In this document: positions 39,945-62,060 of the stretch, in pieces
Numbering within the stretch: position 1 is the first letter of the stretch
How the letters are laid out: every line of letters begins with the position of its first letter
DNA from: Candidatus Enterousia sp.
GTDB lineage: Bacteria > Pseudomonadota > Alphaproteobacteria > Rs-D84
Assembly (NCBI GenBank): GCA_045133095.1
Contig: JBGUTP010000016.1
Coordinates: 76,758-140,757 of the forward strand
Length of the DNA stretch: 64,000 bases
Direction of reading: 5' to 3'
Position numbers and translations under genes: made by a program
The notes under the pieces: generated by a model
What the model saw: the letters and a program-made list of their open reading frames with translations, nothing else
Databases searched by the model: none
Told to the model about the DNA's origin: nothing

Positions 39945-40019
39945 GGCAGCGTAGCTCAGTGGTAGAGCAGAGGAATCATAATCCTTTGGTCGGGGGTCCG
40001 AATCCCTCCGCTGCTACCA
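39945..40019 (+). tRNA. tRNA with CAT anticodon (elongator Met or lysidine-Ile2)
   Basis: Cloverleaf with acceptor GGCAGCG/CGCTGCT (G1-U72), D-arm GCTCAGTGGTAGAGC, anticodon loop ATCATAA, T-arm GGGGGTCCGAATCCCTC and a CCA end. Confidence 0.85.
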
Positions 40020-40022
40020 AAG

Positions 40023-40057
40023 ATTCAACCCCGATTTATTCGGGGTTTAATTTTTGG
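40023..40057 (+). terminator. Terminator after tRNA-Met
   Basis: Hairpin aaccccgatttattcggggtt followed by taattttt. Confidence 0.5.
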
Positions 40058-40175
40058 TATAGTTGTGGCAGATAAGGACCCCAGGGTCCGACAAAAAAGC
40101 AGGTTTTGCAAGTGAAACGCGGCGAAACCGTTGCGATTTGGAAAGGGACCCGCACACAAAGTGTGTGGGAATACA

Positions 40176-40229
40176 CAATCGGCTGCGCTGCTACCAGAAT
40201 TCAAACCGCCCGTGTGGCGGTTGTTTTTT
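40176..40229 (+). repeat. Duplicated tRNA-Met 3' end (cgctgctacca) followed by a terminator hairpin
   Basis: An 11-nt exact match to the 3' end of tRNA-Met lies about 170 bp downstream. It is followed by aaccgcccgtgtggcggtt and T8. Confidence 0.4.
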
Positions 40230-40317
40230 TTGTATTATGACCTGGGTCCCGCGGGGATTCACCCACAAAAATCTTTAATTTTTGCGGGGGCCGAAAAAGC
40301 CACGGGATGATAAAGGA

Positions 40318-40346
40318 CATAAAAACACCGCCCGGGTGGGCGGTGG
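40318..40346. repeat. 29-bp direct repeat, left copy (cataaaaacaccgcccgggtgggcggtgg)
   Basis: Matches 41545-41573 at 28 of 29 positions. On the minus strand it works as the terminator of the cassette. Confidence 0.55.
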
Positions 40347-40360
40347 TGGGGTAATTTTGA

Positions 40361-40750
40361 CTATGTTTCAGTTTGCATGCCGTGCAGTTGGCAACAAAAA
40401 TCATGTATTATTTGTTTTGTGGCGGTGTATTGTTTATGTGGGTTTTGTTTAACAGTGCTTTGTTCTTGTATAAATCTATAGAATTCTAGTAATTCTTGAT
40501 ATCCAGTATCGCCAGATTCTAATATGTAACGATGGCGTGGTTCATATATAGTTAATATCATATTTCTGCCAAATCCATTTTCAACTTGTGCATATAATCC
40601 ATCACGGACAAGGGTGTCGAACCCGTCGTAGTACGCGATATCAAATAGTTTTTTTGTGTTCTGATAAACCGAAAAAAATTTTTTGTCTCTTTTTATGGAG
40701 ATTCCAGACTCTTTTAACTTTGTCTTTAATTCTGCAATTATTTCTTTCAT
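40361..40750 (-). CDS. Hypothetical protein (129 aa), possible immunity/partner protein
   Basis: A small acidic/aromatic protein lying immediately downstream of the 207-aa ORF. I recognise no family. Confidence 0.35.
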   Translation of the reverse strand: MKEIIAELKTKLKESGISIKRDKKFFSVYQNTKKLFDIAYYDGFDTLVRDGLYAQVENGFGRNMILTIYEPRHRYILESGDTGYQELLEFYRFIQEQSTVKQNPHKQYTATKQIIHDFCCQLHGMQTET

Positions 40751-40783
40751 TTTTTGCTTCTTTTTTCTGAAGTTTAGAGTTTT

Positions 40784-41407
40784 TTATTTTTGTGGTATTG
40801 CGGTTTGTATTAACAGACCACGATAGCCGTCAAGCAATGCGCCTAATTTTAGGCATGATTCCATTTCCGAACGTGTTAAGGTTGGCGTGCTTGTTCCCAT
40901 ATAAATGTTATTTGGGCGGATTATGCGACCTGTTTTTTTATCACGAACAATCAATTTATGTACGGTTGCAGGTGTGAAATCGCCACCATTTTTGCCAACA
41001 GTATCCGATTGTACAGGTGTTAATTGTGGATTTGATATTAGTTGTCCGCCGATGATTGTGCCACCCTGTGTTGATTTTTTTTGGTTGCGTGTGGTGTCAT
41101 TTAATATTTGTAAATGTTTTGGTGTTTCTGAATACGCATTTAAGTACAGATATGCGACCAATTCATATTTTTTAGACCAGCGCACATCATTGTCTATGGC
41201 TTTCTTGAGGTCTTGTGCCAATTTCTCGTCAGTCTGTTGTTTAGAATGACTTAATACGCCATAGGCGCTTTTAGTTGCAAAATTTAACTCACCACCATAT
41301 TGCGATTGGTTGTTGTCAAAATTGTACACGATAAAACAACCTTGGTCTGGGAACCAGTTGCCTAGCATATCATTTGTTAATGTTTCTTTTTTATATTTTT
41401 TGAACAT
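40784..41407 (-). CDS. Hypothetical protein (207 aa)
   Basis: A good ORF with no recognisable family. It has a Gly-rich central segment (GGTIIGGQLISNP) and a conserved-looking C-terminus. Confidence 0.35.
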   Translation of the reverse strand: MFKKYKKETLTNDMLGNWFPDQGCFIVYNFDNNQSQYGGELNFATKSAYGVLSHSKQQTDEKLAQDLKKAIDNDVRWSKKYELVAYLYLNAYSETPKHLQILNDTTRNQKKSTQGGTIIGGQLISNPQLTPVQSDTVGKNGGDFTPATVHKLIVRDKKTGRIIRPNNIYMGTSTPTLTRSEMESCLKLGALLDGYRGLLIQTAIPQK

Positions 41408-41544
41408 GCGTAATACCCTTCTTTTAGCAAAAAGGATATCACAAATGTTGTATTTGTCAATATCTTTTACAAGATGTGGTGTTTGTGTATTTGGTCTGAT
41501 TAACGCTTATGGGTTGTTTTACATATTTTAGATATAGTCCTGGG

Positions 41545-41573
41545 CATAAAAATACCGCCCGGGTGGGCGGTGG
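41545..41573. repeat. 29-bp direct repeat, right copy (cataaaaataccgcccgggtgggcggtgg)
   Basis: Direct repeat of 40318-40346. Here it is an orphan terminator-like hairpin with no upstream minus-strand gene. Confidence 0.55.
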
Positions 41574-41646
41574 GAAACTTGAACGGTTGACTTTTATTTG
41601 CATATCTTGGATAATAGGGGCAATTAAGTAAAAAAAGGAAAGGATT

Positions 41647-42144
41647 ATGCGGAAGTTCTTAGTTGCGTTGTTGGCGTTGATTCCAATGAATGTTATGGCA
41701 AATCCGGCATGTCCGGTGTGTACTATCGCGGTCGGGGCAGGGCTGGATATCGCACGACGTTTGGGCGTGCCGGACAGTATTGTTGGACTGTGGGCGGGGG
41801 CGTTGTTGACACTGCTGGGGTATTGGATGCTGAAATGGATGGATAAGAAAAACTGGCATTTCCGGGGTCGTGATACGATTGTTATTGTTTTGTCCGTCGC
41901 AATGATTGGGTTTGTGTATCTGGGGACGGTAAAGTATAACCCTGTGTCAATCTGTGGCGCGTTCGTTATGGACCCGGTTTTGTTCGGTACAATCTGTGGG
42001 GCGTTGATTTTTGTCGGAACCGGTAAATTATATCAATGGATGAAAAATAAAAACGGTGGACATGCGCACTTTCCCTTTGAAAAAGTAGTGTTGCCAGTTG
42101 CTGCGTTGGCGTTGGCTAGTTGGGCAATGATGTTGTGTTTCTAG
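41647..42144 (+). CDS. Small polytopic membrane protein, unknown
   Basis: Signal/TM-like N-terminus and 3-4 predicted TM segments. Confidence 0.4.
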   Translation: MRKFLVALLALIPMNVMANPACPVCTIAVGAGLDIARRLGVPDSIVGLWAGALLTLLGYWMLKWMDKKNWHFRGRDTIVIVLSVAMIGFVYLGTVKYNPVSICGAFVMDPVLFGTICGALIFVGTGKLYQWMKNKNGGHAHFPFEKVVLPVAALALASWAMMLCF

Positions 42145-42162
42145 GATAAGGAGAAAAGTAAA

Positions 42163-42711
42163 ATGAAGAAAATTGAATCTGTTCAGGAATTTGTTGAAAA
42201 GTTAGATGCCGCAAAAAAAGTCAATCCAAAAGATTTGTCGTCCGACCAGGATTTGACAATCGGTATTATGAACCTGATTTCAATTGAAGAACATTTGATG
42301 TTTTCGGGCGCAAAAACCGGCAAGACAGAGTTTTATGACCTGATTAACGAAGTGCGCGAAATGCGTAAAAATGCTATGCTGAAAATCATCCCGGCATACG
42401 AAGGTGAAGTGTGGTGTATTTCAAAGCACTTGCTGGCGGCATCTATGCGTGTGTTTGAAGTGGGTACCAAGGCACTGGCCGCGGGGGATAATCAAACCGC
42501 ATACGATTTGTTTGACCAGTCTTATTCTCTTTATTGTATGTTCTGGGGCTTGAACATGGGGATGTTAACAGGTGAAAAAAAAGACCTGAAGCCATCTAAG
42601 AAATCTGCCCCCATCAAAGCCGCCACACCCGCACAAAAGCAGGAAGTTAAAGGTGGTATGGGTAAGTTAAAAAGTTGGGTTAGGAATGCCGTTAACTGTT
42701 GTATCGAGTAA
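42163..42711 (+). CDS. Hypothetical protein (182 aa)
   Basis: SD GGAGAAAAG is present. I recognise no family. The C-terminus is K/P/A-rich. Confidence 0.4.
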   Translation: MKKIESVQEFVEKLDAAKKVNPKDLSSDQDLTIGIMNLISIEEHLMFSGAKTGKTEFYDLINEVREMRKNAMLKIIPAYEGEVWCISKHLLAASMRVFEVGTKALAAGDNQTAYDLFDQSYSLYCMFWGLNMGMLTGEKKDLKPSKKSAPIKAATPAQKQEVKGGMGKLKSWVRNAVNCCIE

Positions 42712-42720
42712 AATAAATTA

Positions 42721-42960
42721 TAATAATTCATATACGAGCGGGGGCGACAACTCATGTAGCGTTAGTACACTACGTTGTCGCCCCCATCTCGTATCTAAAT
42801 CATTCTAATTTATTTTTAACGAGGCTTAATAATTCATCTACGAGTGGGGGCGCAACTCATGCGGCGTTAGTACACTACGTTGTCGCCCCCCATATTCGTA
42901 TCTAAATCATTCTAAAGAGTACACCGCGTTGTCGCCCCCCCATATCGGGTCTAAATCATT
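42721..42960. repeat. Array of 2.5 copies of a roughly 90-bp REP/MITE-like palindromic element
   Basis: Core atacgagCGGGGGCGACAACtcatgtagcgttagtacactacGTTGTCGCCCCCatctcgtat is a perfect 12-bp stem with nested inverted repeats. It is flanked by taataattcat...ctaaatcattctaa. Two full copies and one half copy are present. Confidence 0.8.
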
Positions 42961-42996
42961 TTTAAATATTGTTTGTTTGTGATATAATCTGGTGAT

Positions 42997-44181
42997 ATGG
43001 CACGAGATAAATATATTTCAATTAATAAAAATGTTAGTGGTTTTTCTTTTGCAAACCTGGGGTTGTTTACAGGGTTTGCAGATGGTATTTATAATGCGGT
43101 TTATTCGCTGGTTATATTAGAGATTTTTAAGTCGTCCGCAATTGTTGGTGTTTATGTGGCGATTTATTCGGTGTTCTGCTTTATCGTTGGATTGTTCGCA
43201 AATGAAATACTGCGCCAATTTTCCAAGGTTCGTGTGTTTTTCTTTGTGTTGCTGATGTTGGCGGCGTGTTACGCGATGATGAGTTTTTCAATCTTGCCAC
43301 GTACTTTTATTATTTTGGATTATACAACCGGAATAGCGGCGACTTTGGTTGGGGTTTTGATTCCGTTGTTTATGTCTGATTTTTCAAAAGATGTGGGAAT
43401 GGCACGTCTTAATTCGCGATATCATTTGTGGATAAATGTTGGGGCGTTGTTTGCACCAACTGTGGCGGTATTAATTGCGAATCATTTTGGAAATAGGGCG
43501 GCTTTCTTTGCGTCGGCGGTTATTTATTTCCTGGCGTGGATGTTGTTTAAATACTTTAGAATTGTTCAAGAAGATAAAAGAATTAAACCGGTTAATCCAA
43601 GAAAAACTTTTATCGGACTGTGGAAAAATACCATAGATTTTTTCAAGGTGCCGGGAATGCTGCGGGCATATTTGATAAATTTTGGATACTATTCGTTGCG
43701 GGCGATGCGTGTGTTGTATGTGCCAATTGTTGTAATCGAAAATGGTTTTGATAAAGGTGTTCTGGGGTGGGTTCTGACATTGGGAATTATTCCGTATCTG
43801 TTGCTAAGTGATGCAATGGCACGCGCCGTGCGCAGATATGGAAAAACAATTTGGTTGGTGTTGGGATTTGGTTCGTTCGCATTGTTGTCGGCGGCGGCAA
43901 CTGTTACAACAGGGGTGCCGTTGTTGGCAATCTTTGTAGCGTGGCAGGTTTCTGGGGCGTTGATGGAATCTGTGCATGATTTGTTGTTCTTTGATGGAAC
44001 CAAAAAATCACAGCAAACAAAATACTATGGGGTGTTCAGAACAAGTTCTAATTTACCTAATGTTTTGGCACCGATTTTGGGGGCTGCGATGATTGCAGGG
44101 TTTGGAATGACTGCTGCGGTGTGGGCGGTGACTGCAACCGTTGGTGCGTTAAGTGTTGGCGTTTTGATAACCAAAAAGTGA
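42997..44181 (+). CDS. MFS-type transporter (12 TM)
   Basis: A 394-aa protein with about 12 hydrophobic segments and a mid-protein break typical of MFS transporters. Confidence 0.55.
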   Translation: MARDKYISINKNVSGFSFANLGLFTGFADGIYNAVYSLVILEIFKSSAIVGVYVAIYSVFCFIVGLFANEILRQFSKVRVFFFVLLMLAACYAMMSFSILPRTFIILDYTTGIAATLVGVLIPLFMSDFSKDVGMARLNSRYHLWINVGALFAPTVAVLIANHFGNRAAFFASAVIYFLAWMLFKYFRIVQEDKRIKPVNPRKTFIGLWKNTIDFFKVPGMLRAYLINFGYYSLRAMRVLYVPIVVIENGFDKGVLGWVLTLGIIPYLLLSDAMARAVRRYGKTIWLVLGFGSFALLSAAATVTTGVPLLAIFVAWQVSGALMESVHDLLFFDGTKKSQQTKYYGVFRTSSNLPNVLAPILGAAMIAGFGMTAAVWAVTATVGALSVGVLITKK

Positions 44182-44240
44182 TACTTGCTTTTTAAGGTTT
44201 TTCTGTGTATGCTTTCCTTAAGAAATAAAGGGGAAATTGT

Positions 44241-45320
44241 ATGGCAAAAAAAGAAGCAGCAAAAGATAGTGGGCTGTTTGGAAAAAATCCAGCGTTGGAA
44301 TCTGCGTTGGCACAAATTCAAAAACAGTTTGGTAAAGAAGCCATTATGAAAATGGGTGATGGTTCACAGCAAAATATCGAAGCGATTTCATCGGGTTCGT
44401 TGGGGCTGGATATTGCGTTGGGAATTGGTGGTTATCCAAAGGGACGTATCGTTGAAATCTATGGACCAGAATCTTCGGGTAAGACAACGTTGGCGTTGCA
44501 TGCGGTTGCGGAATCTCAGAAAAAGGGTGGTACGTGTGCGTATATTGATGCAGAAAATGCACTGGACCCAAGTTATGCAAAAAAGTTAGGGGTGGATGTT
44601 GCTAACTTGATTATTTCACAGCCAGATTCCGGTGAACAGGCATTGGAAATCGCAGATACGCTGATTAAATCAGGCGCGGTTGATGTTGTCGTTATTGACA
44701 GTGTGGCGGCATTGGTGCCAAAGGCAGAATTAGAAGGTAATATTGGGGATTCGTTCGTTGGAACAACTGCACGTTTGATGTCGCAGTCGCTGAAAAAATT
44801 GGCGGGTTCGGTTTCACGCAGTAATACATTGCTTATCTTTATCAATCAAATTCGTATGAAGATTGGTGTGATGTTTGGAAACCCAGAAACAACATCAGGG
44901 GGCAATGCGTTAAAGTTCTATGCGTCGGTGCGTCTTGATATCCGTCGTACAGGACAAATTAAGGATAAAGAAAATATCATCGGTAATGAAACACGTGTCA
45001 AGGTTGTGAAAAATAAGGTCGCGCCACCTTTCCGTACAGTTGACTTTAAGATTATGTACGGCGAAGGTATTAGCCGTATCAGTGAAATCTTGGATATGGG
45101 CGTTAAATACGACTTGATTGAAAAGGCAGGCAGTTTCTATTCTTATAACAGTGAAAGAATGGGGCAGGGTGAAGCGAATGCGCGTCAATGGTTGAAGGAC
45201 CATCCAGAGGCGCAGGAAGAACTGCTGAATAAAATCATGGCGCGGGCATCGGGAATCGCCGAAGAAATGACGACCGGTCCGATTGATGATGAAGATGATG
45301 TGGCAGAAATTGTCGAATGA
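44241..45320 (+). CDS. recA: Recombinase RecA
   Basis: [12 protein letters not shown], loops L1/L2 and canonical RecA sequence throughout. Confidence 0.95.
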
Positions 45321-55040: not shown

Positions 55041-55940
55041 ATGTATGATGTTATTATCTTGGGGTCGGGACCCGCAGGATTAACCGCAGCGTTATATACA
55101 GCGCGCGCAAATAAAAAAACTGTCGTTCTGGGCGGTGATAGATTAGGCGGACAGACCGCAGGAATTGCCGTGTTGGAAAATTATCCAGGATGGGCAGGCA
55201 GTGGTTTAGAGTTAGCGCAGTTTATGAAAAATCAAGCAGAAACATTTGGTGCGACTGTAGAATTTGTAAGTGCAAAAAATATTTCAGGTGATGCGGAAAA
55301 TGGATTCGTGGTTGCGTGTGATAATGGTGCAGAATACAAAGGGCGCGCAATTATTATCGCAACAGGTGCCAGTCCACGTAAATTAGAAATCGAAGGCGCA
55401 CGTGAATTGATGGGGCGCGGTGTTTCGTACTGTGCAACGTGTGATGGATTCTTTTACAGTGGAAAAACAGTTATGGTTATGGGGGGCGGAAACAGTGCGT
55501 TGAATGATGCGTTGTATTTGGCTGACTTGGCAAAAAATGTAAAAATAGTTTATCGCAAGGGGGCGTTTACGCGGGCAGAAGCCGTATTGCGCGAACGTGT
55601 CGCGGCGCGTGATAATATTGAATGCCTGTTCAATACAGACTTGGCAAAAGTCGCCCTGAAGCCTGATTCCGAAGATGGAGAATTAATCGTAACAACCACC
55701 GCCGGTCAGGAAATTGTTGTTGATGGGTTGTTCGTTGCAATTGGACATGAAGCCAATACTGATTTCTTGTCCGAAGATGTTAAACGTGATAATCTGGGGC
55801 GTTTGGCACCGTCTGCAATGCCCACAGGCATCTTTGTTGCAGGTGATGTTCATTCAGAACTGAAAATGCAAATCGCAACAGCCGTAGGAACAGGGTGTAG
55901 CGCAGGCATGGATGCCATAGCGTACCTAAATAAAATCTAA
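55041..55940 (+). CDS. trxB: Thioredoxin reductase
   Basis: GSGPAG FAD motif, the CATCDG redox-active disulfide and GGGNSA NADPH motif. Confidence 0.9.
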   Translation: MYDVIILGSGPAGLTAALYTARANKKTVVLGGDRLGGQTAGIAVLENYPGWAGSGLELAQFMKNQAETFGATVEFVSAKNISGDAENGFVVACDNGAEYKGRAIIIATGASPRKLEIEGARELMGRGVSYCATCDGFFYSGKTVMVMGGGNSALNDALYLADLAKNVKIVYRKGAFTRAEAVLRERVAARDNIECLFNTDLAKVALKPDSEDGELIVTTTAGQEIVVDGLFVAIGHEANTDFLSEDVKRDNLGRLAPSAMPTGIFVAGDVHSELKMQIATAVGTGCSAGMDAIAYLNKI

Positions 55941-55966
55941 TGATGTATCTATGGGCGGGGGGGCGC
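55930..55966. repeat. Truncated (left-half) copy of the REP-like element, overlapping the trxB stop codon
   Basis: aaatctaatgatgtatctatgggcggggggg matches the left end of the 61.9-kb copies (aaatctaatggcgtatctacgggcggggg). Confidence 0.5.
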
Positions 55967-59365: not shown

Positions 59366-61862
59366 AAATATTTTTTGTGCAACAAATCCCGCAAAAATGG
59401 CAGATGCACTGTGGCAGGTTATGGTGCAGTCGGGCGCGAATGTGGCAGATATGCTGATTTTTCTGCCCAGTCGGCGTGCTGTGCGCAGCGTGGAAAAAAT
59501 GATTGTGGAAAAATCAGGGGGGGCTGCGATTTTGCCACGATTGGTTGCATTGGGGGAAGGGGCAGATGAAGAAAAAGATTTAGATTGCAATGATGATGAA
59601 AATGTAATTTCTAATACAGAAAGAATAGTGGTGTTGGCGCGACTGTTGGCGGCGGACGCAAGTGTGGGTGGGTTGTCTGTGGCGTTGGGGGTGGCGCGCG
59701 ATTTGGTGCGTATGCAAGATTATCTTGAAAACGAAGGAATTAATGCAAAAAATATCGATTGGGAAAAAATTGTCGATGAAAAATATGCAGCGCACTTTCA
59801 AAGTAAGGCAAAAATATTAAAGATTTTATCCGATTTTATGCCAATGTATGCAAATGGCAGAATAACTGCCACCGCGGCAAGAAATCGTGATATAAGGGCG
59901 TGGCGTAATCAGTTGAATAACTATGCGCTGGTTATAGTGTGTGCGTCAACTGCCAGTGTGCCGGCAACTGCTGATTTAATGCAGGCGATTGCAGAATTGC
60001 CGCATGGGCGAATTATTTTGTCCGGGAAAATAAGTGGCAGGGTTTCTGATTTTGAACTAAATACCAATCCGTACAATTCAGAATATAAGTTTTTAACCAG
60101 GTTGGAACTGGGGGCGGATGATGTTGTTCCAATAGATGTGGGGGCGTCTGTTATTGATTTTTTGAATTTTTCGTTCGGAAATGATTGTGATATGGCGCAG
60201 ACCGGGGGACGGATTGATAATTGCAAATTGATAGAATGTAAAAGTGAAGCAATAGAAGCAAATGCCGTCGCAGAAATTGCACAAAGGGCGATAGATGAAA
60301 ATAAGTCTGTGTTGGTAATAACGCCTGATGCCGCCGGAAATCAACGTATAGCGGCGGCGTTGGCATTAAGAAAAATTGATGCGGATTTTTCTGGTGGCGT
60401 TTCGGGGGCAATGACAAATACTGGGCGGGCAATATTAAATCTGATTGATGGATGGATTGAAAAATCAAATTCTGAGTTCGATGATATTTATGCCGCACAA
60501 GGTGGTGATTTGTTTAATACGCTTGGTGTGATTGTCGATAAATACGCAGATAGATTTGTGCCGGAATTTGATATTTATGCCCCAGAAAGCCGACAAATAT
60601 GGGTCGCAATTAAGGAAGTGTCAGATGCGCTTAATGCCGCAGGTGTCAGGTTGAATTTAACCGAGGCACGTGTCTTCATAGCGGATGCTGTTGCCGGGGT
60701 TTCTGTGCGTGGGCAGATGAATGACAGTGCCAAGGTCGTTGTGTTGGGAACAATTGAATCGCGTATGCAAACCGCAGATGTTGTAATATTGACAGGATTG
60801 AACGAAGGAATGTTCCCCGCACGCGGCTATGAAAATGCGTGGTTGCCACGTGCATTGGCGGATAAAATAGGATTGCCGTCACCAGACAGAAAGGTGTCTT
60901 TGCAGGCGTTGGACTTTATGAATTTGTCGTGTGGGGCGGATGTCTATTGGTTGCGCAGTTTGGTTTCAGGTGGTGTGCAGACAACCGAATCTCGCTTTTT
61001 ATCACGTGTTGTTGCGCGACGTGGGGTCATTAATCGTGATGTGGCGCGTTCTGTTTTGGGGGCAATAGAAGAACGTGATAACGTACCGTCAAAACCGCTG
61101 CAAAATTTGCCAGCCGTGGCGGGAAATGATTATTCAGATGTCTATGTGACGGAATTGGAATTGCTGATACATAATCCATACGCGTTTTATGTGCGACATA
61201 TTTTGCGATTGAACGTGTTAAAGGATTATTGGGAATTGCCAGATGCGCGTGACTTTGGAACCTTGGTTCATAAAACCATAGAAGAAGCCAAAAGTTGGAA
61301 TGAAAATGAATTAGTGGCAGATATGGACCGGCGGGCGTTGGAAATCTTGGGGCAGGGAAGTGTGATTTTCCATTTCTGGCATAAGAGATTTGTCGAAATT
61401 GCCCCAGTGATAGTAAAAGAATTTTCACAACTGATTGATTCAAGCCCGGAAATAGAAGGGGCGGTTAATATCGCAGGACGAAATGTGCGTGCAAAAGCAG
61501 ACCGGGTTTGGGATGGCGGTGTTTTGGATATCAAAACAGGCGAGGCGCCGTCAAAGTCGCAACTGAAAGATGGCAATATGCCACAATTGCCATTAGAAGC
61601 GTTTATATTACAGCAAGGCGGATTTCCAATTCAGACAACGCAATTGTCGCGTACGCCGGTTATGCGCTTTTTGCAATTGAAAAATAATGACGCGCGCATT
61701 GTAAAATTTGACCAAAATCAGACCCAAGATTATATTCGTGCCGCCGTTGATAAGGTTACCTCCTTGTTCAACATTTATTCCGCAGGTGACGCAGAATATA
61801 AATATCACGAGACAAGCGACCAGAAATATAAACAGTATGATGACCTGGCGCGTGTTAAATAA
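59352..61862 (+). CDS. addB: AddB-like PD-(D/E)XK nuclease (inactivated-helicase N-domain + RecB nuclease C-domain)
   Basis: The C-terminal motifs GRNVRAKADRVW...LDIKTG and FGTLVHKTIEE are typical of the RecB-family nuclease domain. I see no Walker A motif, which is consistent with alphaproteobacterial AddB. Confidence 0.55.
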   Translation: MASNKNIFCATNPAKMADALWQVMVQSGANVADMLIFLPSRRAVRSVEKMIVEKSGGAAILPRLVALGEGADEEKDLDCNDDENVISNTERIVVLARLLAADASVGGLSVALGVARDLVRMQDYLENEGINAKNIDWEKIVDEKYAAHFQSKAKILKILSDFMPMYANGRITATAARNRDIRAWRNQLNNYALVIVCASTASVPATADLMQAIAELPHGRIILSGKISGRVSDFELNTNPYNSEYKFLTRLELGADDVVPIDVGASVIDFLNFSFGNDCDMAQTGGRIDNCKLIECKSEAIEANAVAEIAQRAIDENKSVLVITPDAAGNQRIAAALALRKIDADFSGGVSGAMTNTGRAILNLIDGWIEKSNSEFDDIYAAQGGDLFNTLGVIVDKYADRFVPEFDIYAPESRQIWVAIKEVSDALNAAGVRLNLTEARVFIADAVAGVSVRGQMNDSAKVVVLGTIESRMQTADVVILTGLNEGMFPARGYENAWLPRALADKIGLPSPDRKVSLQALDFMNLSCGADVYWLRSLVSGGVQTTESRFLSRVVARRGVINRDVARSVLGAIEERDNVPSKPLQNLPAVAGNDYSDVYVTELELLIHNPYAFYVRHILRLNVLKDYWELPDARDFGTLVHKTIEEAKSWNENELVADMDRRALEILGQGSVIFHFWHKRFVEIAPVIVKEFSQLIDSSPEIEGAVNIAGRNVRAKADRVWDGGVLDIKTGEAPSKSQLKDGNMPQLPLEAFILQQGGFPIQTTQLSRTPVMRFLQLKNNDARIVKFDQNQTQDYIRAAVDKVTSLFNIYSAGDAEYKYHETSDQKYKQYDDLARVK

Positions 61863-62060
61863 AATCTAATGGCGTATCTACGGGCGGGGGCGACAACTCA
61901 TGTAGCGTTAGTACACTACGTTGTCGCCCCCATCCCGTATTTGCACCATTATCTTTCATTTAATAAAATCTAATGGCGTGTCTGTGGGTGGGTGTGATAA
62001 CTCATGCGGCGTTAGTACACTACGTTGTTGTCCCCATATTCGTATCTGCACCATTATCTT
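61861..62060. repeat. Two tandem copies of the roughly 95-bp REP/MITE-like palindromic element
   Basis: Copy A has a perfect 12-bp stem GGGGGCGACAAC..GTTGTCGCCCCC. Copy B is mutated (GGGTGTGATAAC..GTTGTTGTCCCC). Flanks are aaatctaatggcg...gcaccattatcttt. Copy A starts at the addB-like stop codon. Confidence 0.8.

What the first reader, a model, noticed from the sequence alone, without database searches (positions are those of the whole stretch)
40020..41580. Two-gene cassette of unknown function flanked by 29-bp direct repeats, next to tRNA-Met with a duplicated 3' end
Seen in sequence: immediately after tRNA-Met(CAT) and its terminator there is an 11-nt exact repeat of the tRNA 3' end (cgctgctacca, 40186-40196). 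It is followed by a second terminator. Then come two co-oriented minus-strand ORFs of 207 and 129 aa with a 33-nt gap, and I recognise no family for either. They are bracketed by cataaaaa(c/t)accgcccgggtgggcggtgg at 40318-40346 and 41545-41573, matching at 28 of 29 positions.

The right copy is an orphan terminator-like hairpin with no gene to terminate, which argues for duplication by insertion. The size of about 1.2 kb and the organisation are reminiscent of a toxin-immunity or defence mini-cassette, or of a tiny integrated element whose integrase is gone.
Basis: partly seen in the sequence, partly recalled or inferred. Interest (0 to 1): 0.6.

Follow-up and report, generated by a model that had tools for sequence, protein, structure and literature searches.

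The report
Decayed island cassettes beside tRNA-Met
The two unknown genes are accessory cargo in a gene-swapping hotspot next to a tRNA-Met gene of a small-genome gut bacterium (Candidatus Enterousia). The 29-bp repeats are shared terminator ends of neighbouring decayed integrated-element cassettes, not an insertion scar, and the duplicated tRNA end marks a separate 177-bp mini-element from a widespread family I could not find described.

Summary

**Setting.** The window comes from Candidatus Enterousia. In 47 species of the genus, the spacer between tRNA-Met and a conserved 165-aa gene varies from 116 bp to 7.4 kb. Its content differs almost completely between species and includes DarTG, HigBA, SoFic and Hhe.

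**The two genes.**
- ORF207 occurs in 1 of 47 species and ORF129 in 2 of 47.
- Both are real genes (dN/dS about 0.2), but neither matches a known family or fold.
- Each occurs without the other in relatives.

**The 29-mers.**
- Empty sites carry no 29-mer.
- Both copies belong to a terminator module (GGACATA, A-run, CCGCCC-loop-GGGCGG) that ends other cargo genes in relatives.
- The right copy is the orphaned terminator of a 293-aa-gene cassette that has been deleted here.
- It sits fused to an arm sequence that elsewhere abuts partial tRNA-Met copies and an integrase.

So the locus is a decayed tandem array of tRNA-integrating elements, not a target-site duplication and not a demonstrable toxin-immunity pair.

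**The duplicated tRNA end.** It bounds a 177-bp mini-element. A sister variant of this element sits behind at least 16 different tRNA species in gut metagenomes. Each copy repeats its own tRNA's T-loop-to-CCA end, and the shared core contains covarying hairpins. It has no Rfam match.

The parts
39945..40019 (+). Intact elongator tRNA-Met(CAT). Its last 18 nt (40002-40019, T-loop to CCA) are the segment that is repeated downstream.
   Evidence: ARAGORN and Rfam tRNA at 66 bits. It is 100% conserved in most of the 47 Enterousia loci.
40020..40196 (+). A 177-bp mini-element, variant V1. In order it contains:
- its own terminator (40027-40047);
- an imperfect inverted copy of the tRNA 3' end (40056-40073);
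- a hairpin whose 3' arm copies the T-stem 5' half (40077-40091);
- an 89-nt interior (40091-40179);
- the displaced, partly mutated old tRNA end (40178-40196), of which 40186-40196 is the exact 11-mer.
   Evidence: Sequence. The same block, with 16-19-nt repeats, is present in 17 related loci. The interior is 94-99% identical in 11 related loci (9 of the 47 species) whose coding genes are about 76-85% identical. It folds with z = -4.3. It has no Rfam match.
40204..40232 (+). The original tRNA-Met terminator (AACCGCCCGTGTGGCGGTT plus a T-run), pushed downstream by the mini-element.
   Evidence: The same sequence directly follows the tRNA, or a partial tRNA copy, and abuts the 165-aa gene in L014. 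Analogous terminators are seen at the empty sites L057, L055 and L042.
40318..40346 (-). Left 29-mer. It is the intrinsic terminator of the ORF207-ORF129 transcription unit and a member of the GGACATA + A-run + CCGCCC-loop-GGGCGG cassette-end module.
   Evidence: The homologous position in L011 and L014 holds a related terminator with a different loop and 5' flank.
40361..40750 (-). ORF129, a cargo gene of unknown function.
   Evidence: - dN/dS is 0.19-0.42.
- Only 3 homologue clusters were found, and it is present in 2 of 47 species.
- No Pfam, PHROG, PADLOC or NCBIfam hit.
- It occurs without ORF207 in L014, L015, L018 and L053.
40784..41407 (-). ORF207, a cargo gene of unknown function belonging to a small alphaproteobacterial family.
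   Evidence: - dN/dS is 0.16-0.21.
- There are 6 close clusters plus about 9 distant or fragmentary ones, and it is present in 1 of 47 species.
- No family hits.
- The AlphaFold2 model has pLDDT 46 and is unusable.
- In L001, L007, L010 and L052 it is paired with a convergent 118-aa gene instead of ORF129.
41433..41460 (-). Sigma-70-like promoter of ORF207 (TTGACA, 16-nt spacer, TATCCT).
   Evidence: 10 of 12 matches, with a TG extension. The sequence is conserved upstream of ORF207 in L007, L010 and L011.
41472..41544 (.). Arm-like sequence of the tRNA-Met-integrating element family (gtatttggtctgattaacgcttatgggttg + TTTTACATATTTTAGATAT). Here it is a hybrid: a type-B left half joined to a type-A right half.
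   Evidence: Motif census and alignment A8. In L014, L019, L023, L026, L042, L043 and L045 the type-B arm directly abuts a 45-nt partial tRNA-Met. In L001 it precedes the HTH_17-integrase operon.
41545..41573 (-). Right 29-mer, an orphan terminator. It is the relic of the terminator of a neighbouring 293-aa-gene-type cassette whose gene has been deleted.
   Evidence: Alignment A8. The same module, followed by GGGGATTATCGTGTG (the stop codon and last codons of the 293-aa gene), is present in L034, L039, L052 and L061, and a close variant upstream of ORF207 in L001. L011 keeps only a stub of that gene. The window and L010 have none.
41587..41615 (+). Promoter of the conserved 165-aa gene (TTGACT, 17-nt spacer, GATAAT). 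Its -35 box marks the right edge of the variable region.
   Evidence: All empty and filled sites rejoin the common sequence at gTTGACTTTT.

Best explanation
The region from 40020 to about 41585 is the variable spacer of an integration hotspot. It lies between tRNA-Met and a conserved 165-aa gene in Candidatus Enterousia (Alphaproteobacteria, order Rs-D84; genomes below 1 Mb).

**How the array formed (inferred).** Tyrosine-integrase elements integrate into the 3' part of tRNA-Met. Over time they pile up in tandem and decay, through deletions between their repeated arms, into short integrase-less cassettes. Each cassette consists of arm, promoter, one or two cargo genes, and a terminator.

**What remains in this genome.**
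1. A 177-bp mini-element next to the tRNA. It regenerated the tRNA's 3' end and displaced the old end together with its terminator.
2. One cargo unit, ORF207-ORF129, transcribed leftward from its own promoter and stopped by the left 29-mer.
3. The orphaned terminator of a further cassette, which is the right 29-mer. Its gene is a 293-aa gene in relatives and has been deleted here.

**The 29-mers.** They are therefore equivalent end-modules of two adjacent cassettes. They are not target-site duplications. Their near-identity, including the loop, is best explained by recent gene conversion or by shared descent within this lineage.

**Shown versus inferred.**
- Shown: the presence/absence polymorphism, the empty sites, the homology of the arms and terminators, the partial tRNA copies and the integrase in relatives, the separability of the two genes, and purifying selection on both.
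- Inferred: the order of events, past mobility, and gene conversion.
- Unknown: the biochemical function of ORF207 and ORF129. My best guess is two independent accessory cargo genes, possibly related to defence or stress because of the company they keep.
For: **Hotspot**
- 47 Enterousia species share the order PagL(-), tRNA-Met(+), variable spacer, 165-aa(+), 182-aa(+).
- In the 20 loci with the intact tRNA in view, the spacer is 116 bp to 7.4 kb. I called 175 ORFs in the spacers of 45 loci; they fall into 119 clusters, 93 of them singletons.
- Empty sites L057, L042 and L055 read tRNA, terminator, TTGACT with no 29-mer.

**Integrative origin**
- 45-nt partial tRNA-Met copies (positions 31-75) occur in at least 9 loci.
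- In L001 an HTH_17 gene and a P4-type integrase sit next to such a copy.
- The motif TTTTACATATACTRGACAT marks both arm types.
- In L014 the ORF129 homologue lies between two roughly 190-bp direct repeats, each made of an arm plus a partial tRNA.

**The 29-mer as a module**
- ccccaCCGCCC-loop-GGGCGGtgtttt(t/c)tatgtcc ends the radical-SAM gene in L001 and the 293-aa gene in L039. Alignment A8 shows the same module behind the 293-aa gene in L034, L052 and L061.
- L010 has flanks 98.6% identical to the window. It carries the right copy at the same position but has a 118-aa gene instead of ORF129.
- L011 keeps a stub of the 293-aa gene behind the hairpin.

**The genes are accessory and separable**
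- ORF207 is in 1 of 47 species and ORF129 in 2 of 47.
- Between the window and L011, dS is 0.20 for ORF207 but 0.89 for ORF129.
- The nearest ORF129 relative (L018, 95% identity) sits beside a DUF5662 gene rather than ORF207.

**No integrase** was found in the 64-kb window by searching with two integrase queries from relatives.

**Literature**
- Islands at tRNA genes regenerate the target and leave a displaced fragment (PMC4383910).
- Decayed elements can retain their att sites, and further elements then accrete in tandem; these are called CIMEs (PMC5704250).
Against: - In the window, no partial tRNA copy flanks the 1.2-kb unit itself. Its membership in the element family rests on about 65 bp of arm homology plus the 32-bp terminator module.
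- Mobility of any of these cassettes has not been observed.
- Only one relative (L001/L002) shows an integrase at the locus.
- The two window 29-mers share the same loop, whereas most orthologous hairpins differ in theirs. A local duplication event therefore cannot be excluded.
- The apparent split of an ancestral spacer (acctgggt | ggttgac at 40247 / 41584, compare L014) could mean that the whole block arrived, or was moved, by a non-att event.
- Related genomes are MAG contigs, so the absence of a gene from a locus does not prove its absence from the genome.
Confidence: 0.72

Rival explanations
1. The 1.2-kb two-gene unit is a discrete mobile cassette, and its insertion duplicated a 29-bp target sequence.
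For: The two copies are 28 of 29 identical, in direct orientation, and have identical loops. The right copy is orphaned. The flanking spacer pieces acctgggt and ggttgac look like one ancestral sequence split by the block.
Against: - Empty sites contain no 29-mer that could have been duplicated.
- The right copy exists in L010 without ORF129.
- Homologous hairpins are terminators of other genes in relatives.
- ORF207 and ORF129 have different partners and different divergence.
- A 29-bp target duplication is outside the range of known transposases (my own knowledge).
Confidence: 0.06
2. ORF207 and ORF129 form a toxin-antitoxin, toxin-immunity or anti-phage defence pair.
For: - They form a small co-oriented operon with a 33-nt gap.
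- In other species the same hotspot carries DarT/DarG, HigB/HigA-like genes, SoFic, Hhe, PDC-S37 and Mko-like genes.
- The pair is kept together in L011-L013.
Against: - No hit in PADLOC, Pfam, PHROGs, NCBIfam or PDB.
- No fold match for ORF129.
- ORF207 occurs without ORF129 in L001, L007, L010 and L052. ORF129 homologues occur without ORF207 in L014, L015, L018 and L053.
- Distant ORF207 homologues are solitary genes between fabF and an acyl-CoA-ligase-like gene.
- dS is 0.20 versus 0.89 between the same two genomes.
Confidence: 0.12
3. Both genes are ordinary lineage-specific chromosomal genes, and the two hairpins are unrelated generic terminators that look alike by chance or by convergence.
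For: GC-rich CGCCC/GGGCG stems are common among terminators in this AT-rich genome (family D2). Both genes are under purifying selection.
Against: - The genes are in 1 of 47 and 2 of 47 species.
- The match extends beyond the stem to the loop and to the GGACATAAAAA flank, with 0 expected by chance.
- The same extended module recurs at cassette ends within this hotspot in other species.
Confidence: 0.05

Closest known systems
Tandem accretion of integrative elements at a tRNA gene, with decay to cis-mobilizable elements (CIMEs). Reviewed in PMC5704250; the endpoint logic is given in the Islander paper, PMC4383910.
   Same: - The array lies at the 3' side of a tRNA gene.
- Displaced tRNA fragments appear as direct repeats: 45 nt and 16-19 nt in relatives, 11-19 nt in the window.
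- An integrase is present in one relative and absent in most.
- Several unrelated cargo modules lie in tandem, and presence or absence varies between species.
   Different: - The modules are very small, with 1-2 genes each.
- The window's 1.2-kb unit has lost its tRNA-derived att repeats, so it is no longer even a CIME in the strict sense.
- Arms have recombined into hybrids.
- No conjugation or mobilisation genes were seen.
Defence islands and integration hotspots for anti-phage systems
   Same: A single conserved intergenic site holds different small systems in different species, including DarTG, SoFic, Hhe and HigBA.
   Different: The host has a genome below 1 Mb. The two genes in this window match no known system.
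Integron gene cassettes
   Same: An array of short, mostly co-oriented one-gene units separated by repeated hairpin-containing boundaries.
   Different: No IntI or attI was seen. The units carry their own promoters and terminators. The boundaries are integrase-arm-like sequences plus partial tRNA copies, not attC sites.
Integration at the tRNA T-loop by tyrosine integrases (for example mycobacteriophage Ms6 at tRNA-Ala, PMC1762012). This comparison concerns the 177-bp mini-element.
   Same: The direct repeat runs from the T-loop to CCA. The element regenerates the tRNA's 3' end and supplies a terminator. The old end is displaced.
   Different: - The element is only 160-200 bp and has no integrase.
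- One shared core is found behind at least 16 different tRNA species.
- It carries an extra inverted copy of the tRNA end.
- Its core has covarying hairpins.
Delocalized crRNAs of CRISPR-associated transposons that home next to tRNA genes (PMC11656645), and guide RNAs of IS200/IS605-family nucleases (my own knowledge). This comparison concerns the mini-element.
   Same: A conserved structured scaffold is followed directly by about 17-19 nt identical to the neighbouring tRNA's 3' end.
   Different: No transposon ends were identified. No match to any curated Rfam family was found. The window was not searched for cas or tnpB genes. The resemblance is a lead only.

Membership tests
tRNA-integrating genomic island / CIME | Lies immediately 3' of a tRNA gene that remains intact. 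| tested here: met
   tRNA-Met at 39945-40019 is intact. The variable block starts at 40020.
tRNA-integrating genomic island / CIME | A displaced fragment of the tRNA forms a direct repeat at the far end of the element. | tested here: inconclusive
   - Met for the 177-bp mini-element (40178-40196).
- Not met for the ORF207-ORF129 unit in the window.
- Met for the ORF129 homologue in L014, where 45-nt partial tRNA copies lie on both sides.
tRNA-integrating genomic island / CIME | A tyrosine integrase is present (island), or is absent while the att sites are retained (CIME). | tested here: inconclusive
   No integrase was found in the 64-kb window with two integrase queries. A P4-type integrase and an HTH_17 gene lie at the same locus in L001. 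The att repeats around the two-gene unit have been lost.
tRNA-integrating genomic island / CIME | Presence/absence polymorphism, with an empty site in relatives. | tested here: met
   Empty or near-empty sites are L057, L028, L058, L042 and L055.
Transposon-style target-site duplication | The repeated sequence is present once in the unoccupied target. | tested here: not met
   No 29-mer is present at any empty site. Single copies occur only as terminators of other cargo genes.
Type II toxin-antitoxin or toxin-immunity pair | The two genes co-occur as a conserved adjacent pair. | tested here: not met
   Each gene is found without the other in several loci. Divergence is discordant.
Type II toxin-antitoxin or toxin-immunity pair | Homology or fold similarity to a known toxin, antitoxin or immunity protein. 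| tested here: not met
   The ORF207 model was too poor to search with.
Type II toxin-antitoxin or toxin-immunity pair | One product is toxic and the other neutralises it. | not testable with these tools
   This needs expression experiments.
Integron cassette array | An IntI integrase, attI, and attC sites at the cassette boundaries, with promoterless cassettes. | tested here: not met
   No integrase was found in the window with the two integrase queries used. The unit has its own promoter and terminator. The boundaries are arm plus partial tRNA sequences. I made no search for attC consensus sequences.
Intrinsic (rho-independent) terminator | A GC-rich hairpin followed by a T-run on the transcribed strand. 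| tested here: met
   Both 29-mers meet this on the minus strand. Function was not tested.
Any curated RNA family (Rfam 15), tested for the mini-element | A covariance-model match. | tested here: not met
   Only tRNA matches were found.

The most novel reading that the evidence does not exclude
The 177-bp block at 40020-40196 and its sister at 25394-25561 (behind the initiator tRNA-fMet) may belong to an undescribed family of roughly 160-200-bp elements.

**What the family looks like.**
- The elements sit directly behind tRNA genes of many specificities.
- The sister variant was found behind 16 different anticodons in gut and rumen metagenomes.
- Each copy carries its own terminator, a decaying inverted copy of the cognate tRNA's 3' end, and a direct copy of the T-arm split in the T-loop by a core of about 90 nt.
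- Each copy ends in an exact 11-19-nt repeat of that tRNA's T-loop-to-CCA end.
- The core has an invariant stretch (GGCAGACGGNAGUAUGCCGG) and two helices with many compensatory changes.

**What it could be.** Either a structured RNA or single-stranded-DNA element that targets or reads tRNA 3' ends, or a miniature integrase-less integrative element with an unusually broad range of tRNA targets.
Probability: 0.35. Interest if true: 0.75.

Novelty: new member of a known kind. Interest (0 to 1): 0.42.

Why it matters
**The finding as posed.** It shows how a bacterium with a genome below 1 Mb still keeps one intergenic site as a dump and exchange point for accessory genes. It also warns that direct repeats around a small cassette can be shared module ends rather than insertion scars.

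**The two proteins.** They add two orphan families to the cargo pool of a hotspot that otherwise carries defence and toxin-antitoxin systems. That makes them reasonable but unproven candidates for functional screening.

**The mini-element.** This is the more interesting by-product. One conserved structured core sits behind many different tRNA genes, each time with a matching copy of that tRNA's end. If this reflects a targeting or sensing mechanism, it would be a new way of recognising tRNA genes or tRNAs.

Tried and rejected
**Function of the two proteins**
- Family searches with four libraries found nothing for either protein.
- Scans of distant homologues gave only sub-threshold DUF4468 hints. 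I rejected these as evidence.
- The AlphaFold2 model of ORF207 from a 7-sequence alignment was unusable (pLDDT 46).
- Profile searches against PDB found nothing.
- One hit from the 1.84-billion-protein profile search (P0015, 2194 aa, repetitive) was discarded as low-complexity noise.

**Mini-element**
- RNAalifold over all variants together gave no common fold. The variants are too different to align.
- I tested whether the outer inverted copy pairs with the repeated tRNA end as RNA. Substitutions that keep G-U pairs (18) were no more frequent than substitutions that create A-C mismatches (16), and there were 65 transversions. I therefore dropped the idea of a selected outer RNA helix, or tRNA-like acceptor stem.
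- The viral-contig scan for the core found nothing. The 3 viral hits to the arm motif were not pursued because they are likely chance matches.
- I considered tmRNA (including the two-piece alphaproteobacterial form), SRP RNA and T-box readings of the mini-element. I dropped them because ARAGORN and Rfam gave no match.

**Technical**
- A fuzzy-regex scan timed out and was replaced by blastn.
Full report
**1. The observation**

- tRNA-Met(CAT) is at 39945-40019.
- Its last 11 nt recur exactly at 40186-40196.
- Each copy is followed by a terminator-like hairpin, at 40027-40047 and 40204-40222.
- Two minus-strand ORFs of 207 aa (40784-41407) and 129 aa (40361-40750) are separated by 33 nt.
- The 29-mer occurs at 40318-40346 and 41545-41573, with 28 of 29 identical (30 of 32 when extended). 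It has no third copy in the 64-kb window and none is expected by chance.
- Read on the minus strand, both copies are a hairpin followed by a T-run. The left copy terminates the two ORFs. The right copy has no gene to terminate, because the next gene to the right is on the plus strand.

**2. Organism and setting**

ORF207 has only six close homologue clusters, all from gut metagenomes. A scan of one genome per species with the neighbouring 165-aa protein returned 47 loci. All are MAGs labelled Candidatus Enterousia or Alphaproteobacteria from ruminant and other animal guts (taxonomy). The genus belongs to order Rs-D84 and has genomes below about 1 Mb (PMC12306168).

In these loci the gene order PagL(-), tRNA-Met(+), spacer, 165-aa(+), 182-aa(+) is conserved. 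The spacer is not conserved.

- In the 20 loci where the intact tRNA is in view, the spacer ranges from 116 bp to 7.4 kb.
- I called 175 ORFs in the spacers of 45 loci. They fall into 119 clusters, of which 93 are singletons.
- Known systems among the spacer ORFs include DarT/DarG, SoFic, Hhe, PDC-S37 and Mko-like proteins, plus HigB/HigA-like pairs.
- Some housekeeping families in that census come from loci where the tRNA was not in view, so my region was drawn too wide there.

**3. Empty sites**

L057, L055 and L042 read tRNA (or partial tRNA), terminator AAACCGCCC-loop-GGGCGGTTTTT, then the -35 box TTGACT of the 165-aa gene. None has a 29-mer. The variable region therefore ends just left of TTGACT, at window position about 41585, which is 12 nt to the right of the right 29-mer. 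An empty site exists, but it does not carry a single copy of the 29-mer.

**4. Integrative elements use this tRNA**

- Many loci carry extra copies of tRNA-Met positions 31-75. This is a 45-nt segment running from the anticodon loop to CCA.
- In L001 such a copy lies beside an HTH_17 gene and a 412-aa integrase with Arm-DNA-bind_3, Phage_int_SAM_3 and Phage_integrase domains.
- A 19-nt motif, TTTTACATATACTRGACAT, occurs in two kinds of flanking arm.
  - Type A follows the tRNA and its terminator. It continues as AATyyCGGACATAGAAAA, followed either by the excisionase-promoter region or by a hairpin terminator.
  - Type B (gtatttaatctgattaacgcttatggacaa, the motif, then gtggcggatttctgcgg...) runs into the partial tRNA copy.
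- In L014 the ORF129 homologue sits between two roughly 190-bp direct repeats, each a type-B arm plus a partial tRNA. The second repeat directly abuts the 165-aa gene.
- L052 and L053 show several one-gene units in a row, each with its own promoter next to such arm sequences.

This is the pattern described for tandem accretion and decay of integrative elements into integrase-less remnants (PMC5704250). Regenerated and displaced tRNA fragments mark the element ends (PMC4383910).

**5. What the 29-mers are**

Alignment A8 places both window copies in one module: GGACATA, an A-run, CACCGCCC-loop-GGGCGGTGGGG.

- In L034, L039, L052 and L061 this module is followed by ATTATCGTGTGTTTTGC. That sequence is the stop codon and last codons of a 293-aa cargo gene read on the minus strand (one search gives the reading in L001).
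- In L001 the module also ends the radical-SAM gene.
- In L001 the 293-aa gene lies immediately upstream of ORF207, with this hairpin between them.
- L011 has the hairpin plus only a stub of that gene.
- The window and its close relative L010 have the hairpin joined straight to the 165-aa promoter.

Left of the right 29-mer, window 41472-41544 is a type-B arm as far as the motif and type-A after it. It is a hybrid, as expected from a deletion between the motif copies of two adjacent elements.

The right copy is thus a relic terminator, orphaned by deletion. The left copy occupies the position of the ORF129 terminator seen in L011, L014 and L053. There the loop and 5' flank differ. The window's two copies have the same loop, which suggests local gene conversion or duplication over about 32 bp. 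I cannot distinguish these, and the same loop variant also occurs in L046.

**6. The two genes**

- *Real genes.* Against five and four relatives respectively, dN/dS is 0.16-0.21 for ORF207 and 0.19-0.42 for ORF129.
- *Rare.* ORF207 occurs in 1 of 47 species representatives and ORF129 in 2 of 47.
- *Not a fixed pair.*
  - ORF207 is followed by a convergent 118-aa lipoprotein-like gene in L001, L007, L010 and L052.
  - ORF129 homologues stand alone or with other genes in L014, L015, L018 and L053.
  - Only L011-L013 keep the pair. Between the window and L011, dS is 0.20 for ORF207 but 0.89 for ORF129.
  - L010 has flanks 98.6% identical to the window, yet its ORF207 allele is only 74% identical in protein. 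Alleles are therefore exchanged by recombination.
- *No known family.* Neither protein matches Pfam, PHROGs, PADLOC, NCBIfam or PDB sequences.
- *Distant relatives.* A profile search of 1.84 billion representatives found a handful of distant full-length relatives of ORF207, 176-227 aa long. In two lineages these are solitary genes between fabF and an AMP-binding enzyme. Three of them give sub-threshold hits to DUF4468, which I do not count.

Function is therefore unknown. The toxin-immunity idea has only contextual support and is weakened by the separability of the genes.

**7. The duplicated tRNA end**

The block 40020-40196 is a unit found in many Enterousia loci. It is bounded by the intact tRNA's end and a 16-19-nt repeat of it. 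In L058 it is the only thing between the tRNA and the 165-aa gene.

The repeat runs from the T-loop to CCA. The block supplies a new terminator, and the old end plus the old terminator (40204-40232) are displaced. By island logic this is a 177-bp 'island' with no genes.

Its 89-nt interior is 94-99% identical in 11 related loci, 9 of them among the 47 species loci. For comparison, window coding sequences match L001, L007 and L008 at 76-81% nucleotide identity, and the 165-aa protein is about 79-93% identical across most of the species.

A second sequence variant (V2) occupies the same place in other species. Unexpectedly, the window's initiator tRNA-fMet (25562-25638, minus strand) is followed by a V2-type unit at 25394-25561, and then by a degenerate second unit at 25294-25393.

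**8. The V2 core elsewhere**

An exact-pattern scan for AAAGGCAGACGGNNGNATGCCGGT found 62 copies at 58 metagenome loci.

- In 45 copies an intact tRNA lies 73-200 nt upstream on the same strand. Sixteen different anticodons are represented.
- In 35 of the 45, an exact repeat of at least 9 nt of that tRNA's own 3' end follows 55-106 nt after the motif, usually 17-19 nt long.
- Upstream of the core lies an imperfect inverted copy of the cognate tRNA end. After it comes a direct copy of the T-stem 5' strand plus TTCG(A). The direct T-arm copy is therefore split in the T-loop by the core.
- Cognate inverted copies pair better than non-cognate ones: mean -15.8 versus -13.6 kcal/mol, p = 7e-4.
- The mismatches show no bias toward G-U pairs: 18 versus 16, with 65 transversions. 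I therefore do not regard this outer palindrome as a selected RNA helix.
- Inside the core there is covariation.
  - The hairpin right after CCGG appears with at least 12 different complementary arm pairs.
  - A short closing helix also covaries (GCAA/TTGC, GTAA/TTAC, GAAA/TTTC, GGCA/TGCC, GGT/ACC).
  - The hairpin is 89% canonically paired, versus 68% on average and 76% at most in 1000 shuffles. The closing helix is 70% paired, versus 52% on average and 62% at most.
  - Some hairpin arms were mis-assigned by my script, so these numbers are approximate.
- Tandem arrays of units occur in L102, L086, L087, L108 and L113.
- There is no Rfam match and no hit in viral contigs.

I cannot decide between three readings:
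- a miniature integrase-less integrative element that uses T-loop crossover (compare Ms6, PMC1762012);
- a small single-strand-type insertion in the T-loop;
- a structured RNA with a tRNA-matching 3' tail (compare the delocalized crRNAs of CASTs, PMC11656645).

**9. Verdict**

- It is wrong on the mechanism of the repeats, which are shared module ends with one orphaned by deletion, not an insertion duplication.
- The toxin or defence function is unsupported.
- The cassette itself is an ordinary new member of a known kind.
- The tRNA-end mini-element inside the same coordinates is the part that deserves follow-up.

Noticed in passing
window 25294-25561 (minus strand), downstream of the initiator tRNA-fMet at 25562-25638: A 168-bp mini-element lies at 25394-25561. 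It contains a terminator, a hairpin copying the T-arm, the conserved core AAAGGCAGACGGCAGTATGCCGGT, and a 20-nt copy of the tRNA-fMet 3' end that differs from the tRNA at 2 positions. A second, core-less degenerate unit follows at 25294-25393. This is the same family as variant V2 found at tRNA-Met in other Enterousia species.
   Followed up: yes
L073-L130 (metagenome loci): The V2 core occurs behind tRNAs with 16 different anticodons. Most copies carry an exact 11-19-nt repeat of the cognate tRNA end, and some are in tandem arrays. The inner hairpins covary. There is no Rfam match.
   Followed up: partly
window 40091-40179, compared with L001, L021, L032, L036, L039, L040, L041 and L050: The interior of the V1 mini-element is 94-99% identical across species whose protein-coding genes are only about 76-85% identical. 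This points either to strong constraint or to recent spread.
   Followed up: partly
window 42709-42787, 42814-42892, 42869-42965, 55927-55961, 61855-61933, 61959-62037: A family of intergenic repeats of about 79 nt, built around a long GC-rich hairpin (GGGGGCGACAACTCATGTAGCGTTAGTACACTACGTTGTCGCCCCC). They often occur as tandem pairs about 104 bp apart and are unrelated to the 29-mer.
   Followed up: no
L019 3889-5603: A DarG-like (macro domain) and DarT gene pair is carried as cargo between the intact tRNA-Met and a 45-nt partial copy, with no integrase. Other species carry SoFic, Hhe, PDC-S37 and Mko-like genes at the same site.
   Followed up: partly
L011 5400-7600 (also L012, L013): The segment tRNA-Met, ORF129 homologue, ORF207 is inverted relative to PagL. 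On its other side it is joined to an ABC-transporter and glycosyltransferase cluster instead of the 165-aa gene.
   Followed up: no
L010 4044-6282, compared with window 40780-45000: The flanks are 98.6% identical to the window, but the ORF207 allele is only 74% identical in protein (dS 0.87) and ORF129 is replaced by a convergent 118-aa lipoprotein-like gene. This is allele or cassette replacement by recombination inside otherwise near-identical genomes.
   Followed up: partly
window 40240-40247 and 41584-41596, compared with L014 6650-6700: The spacer acctgggt|ggttgacttt is contiguous in L014, L027 and L053 but is split in the window by the whole 1.3-kb block. This hints that the block's present position is not a tRNA-core att junction.
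   Followed up: no
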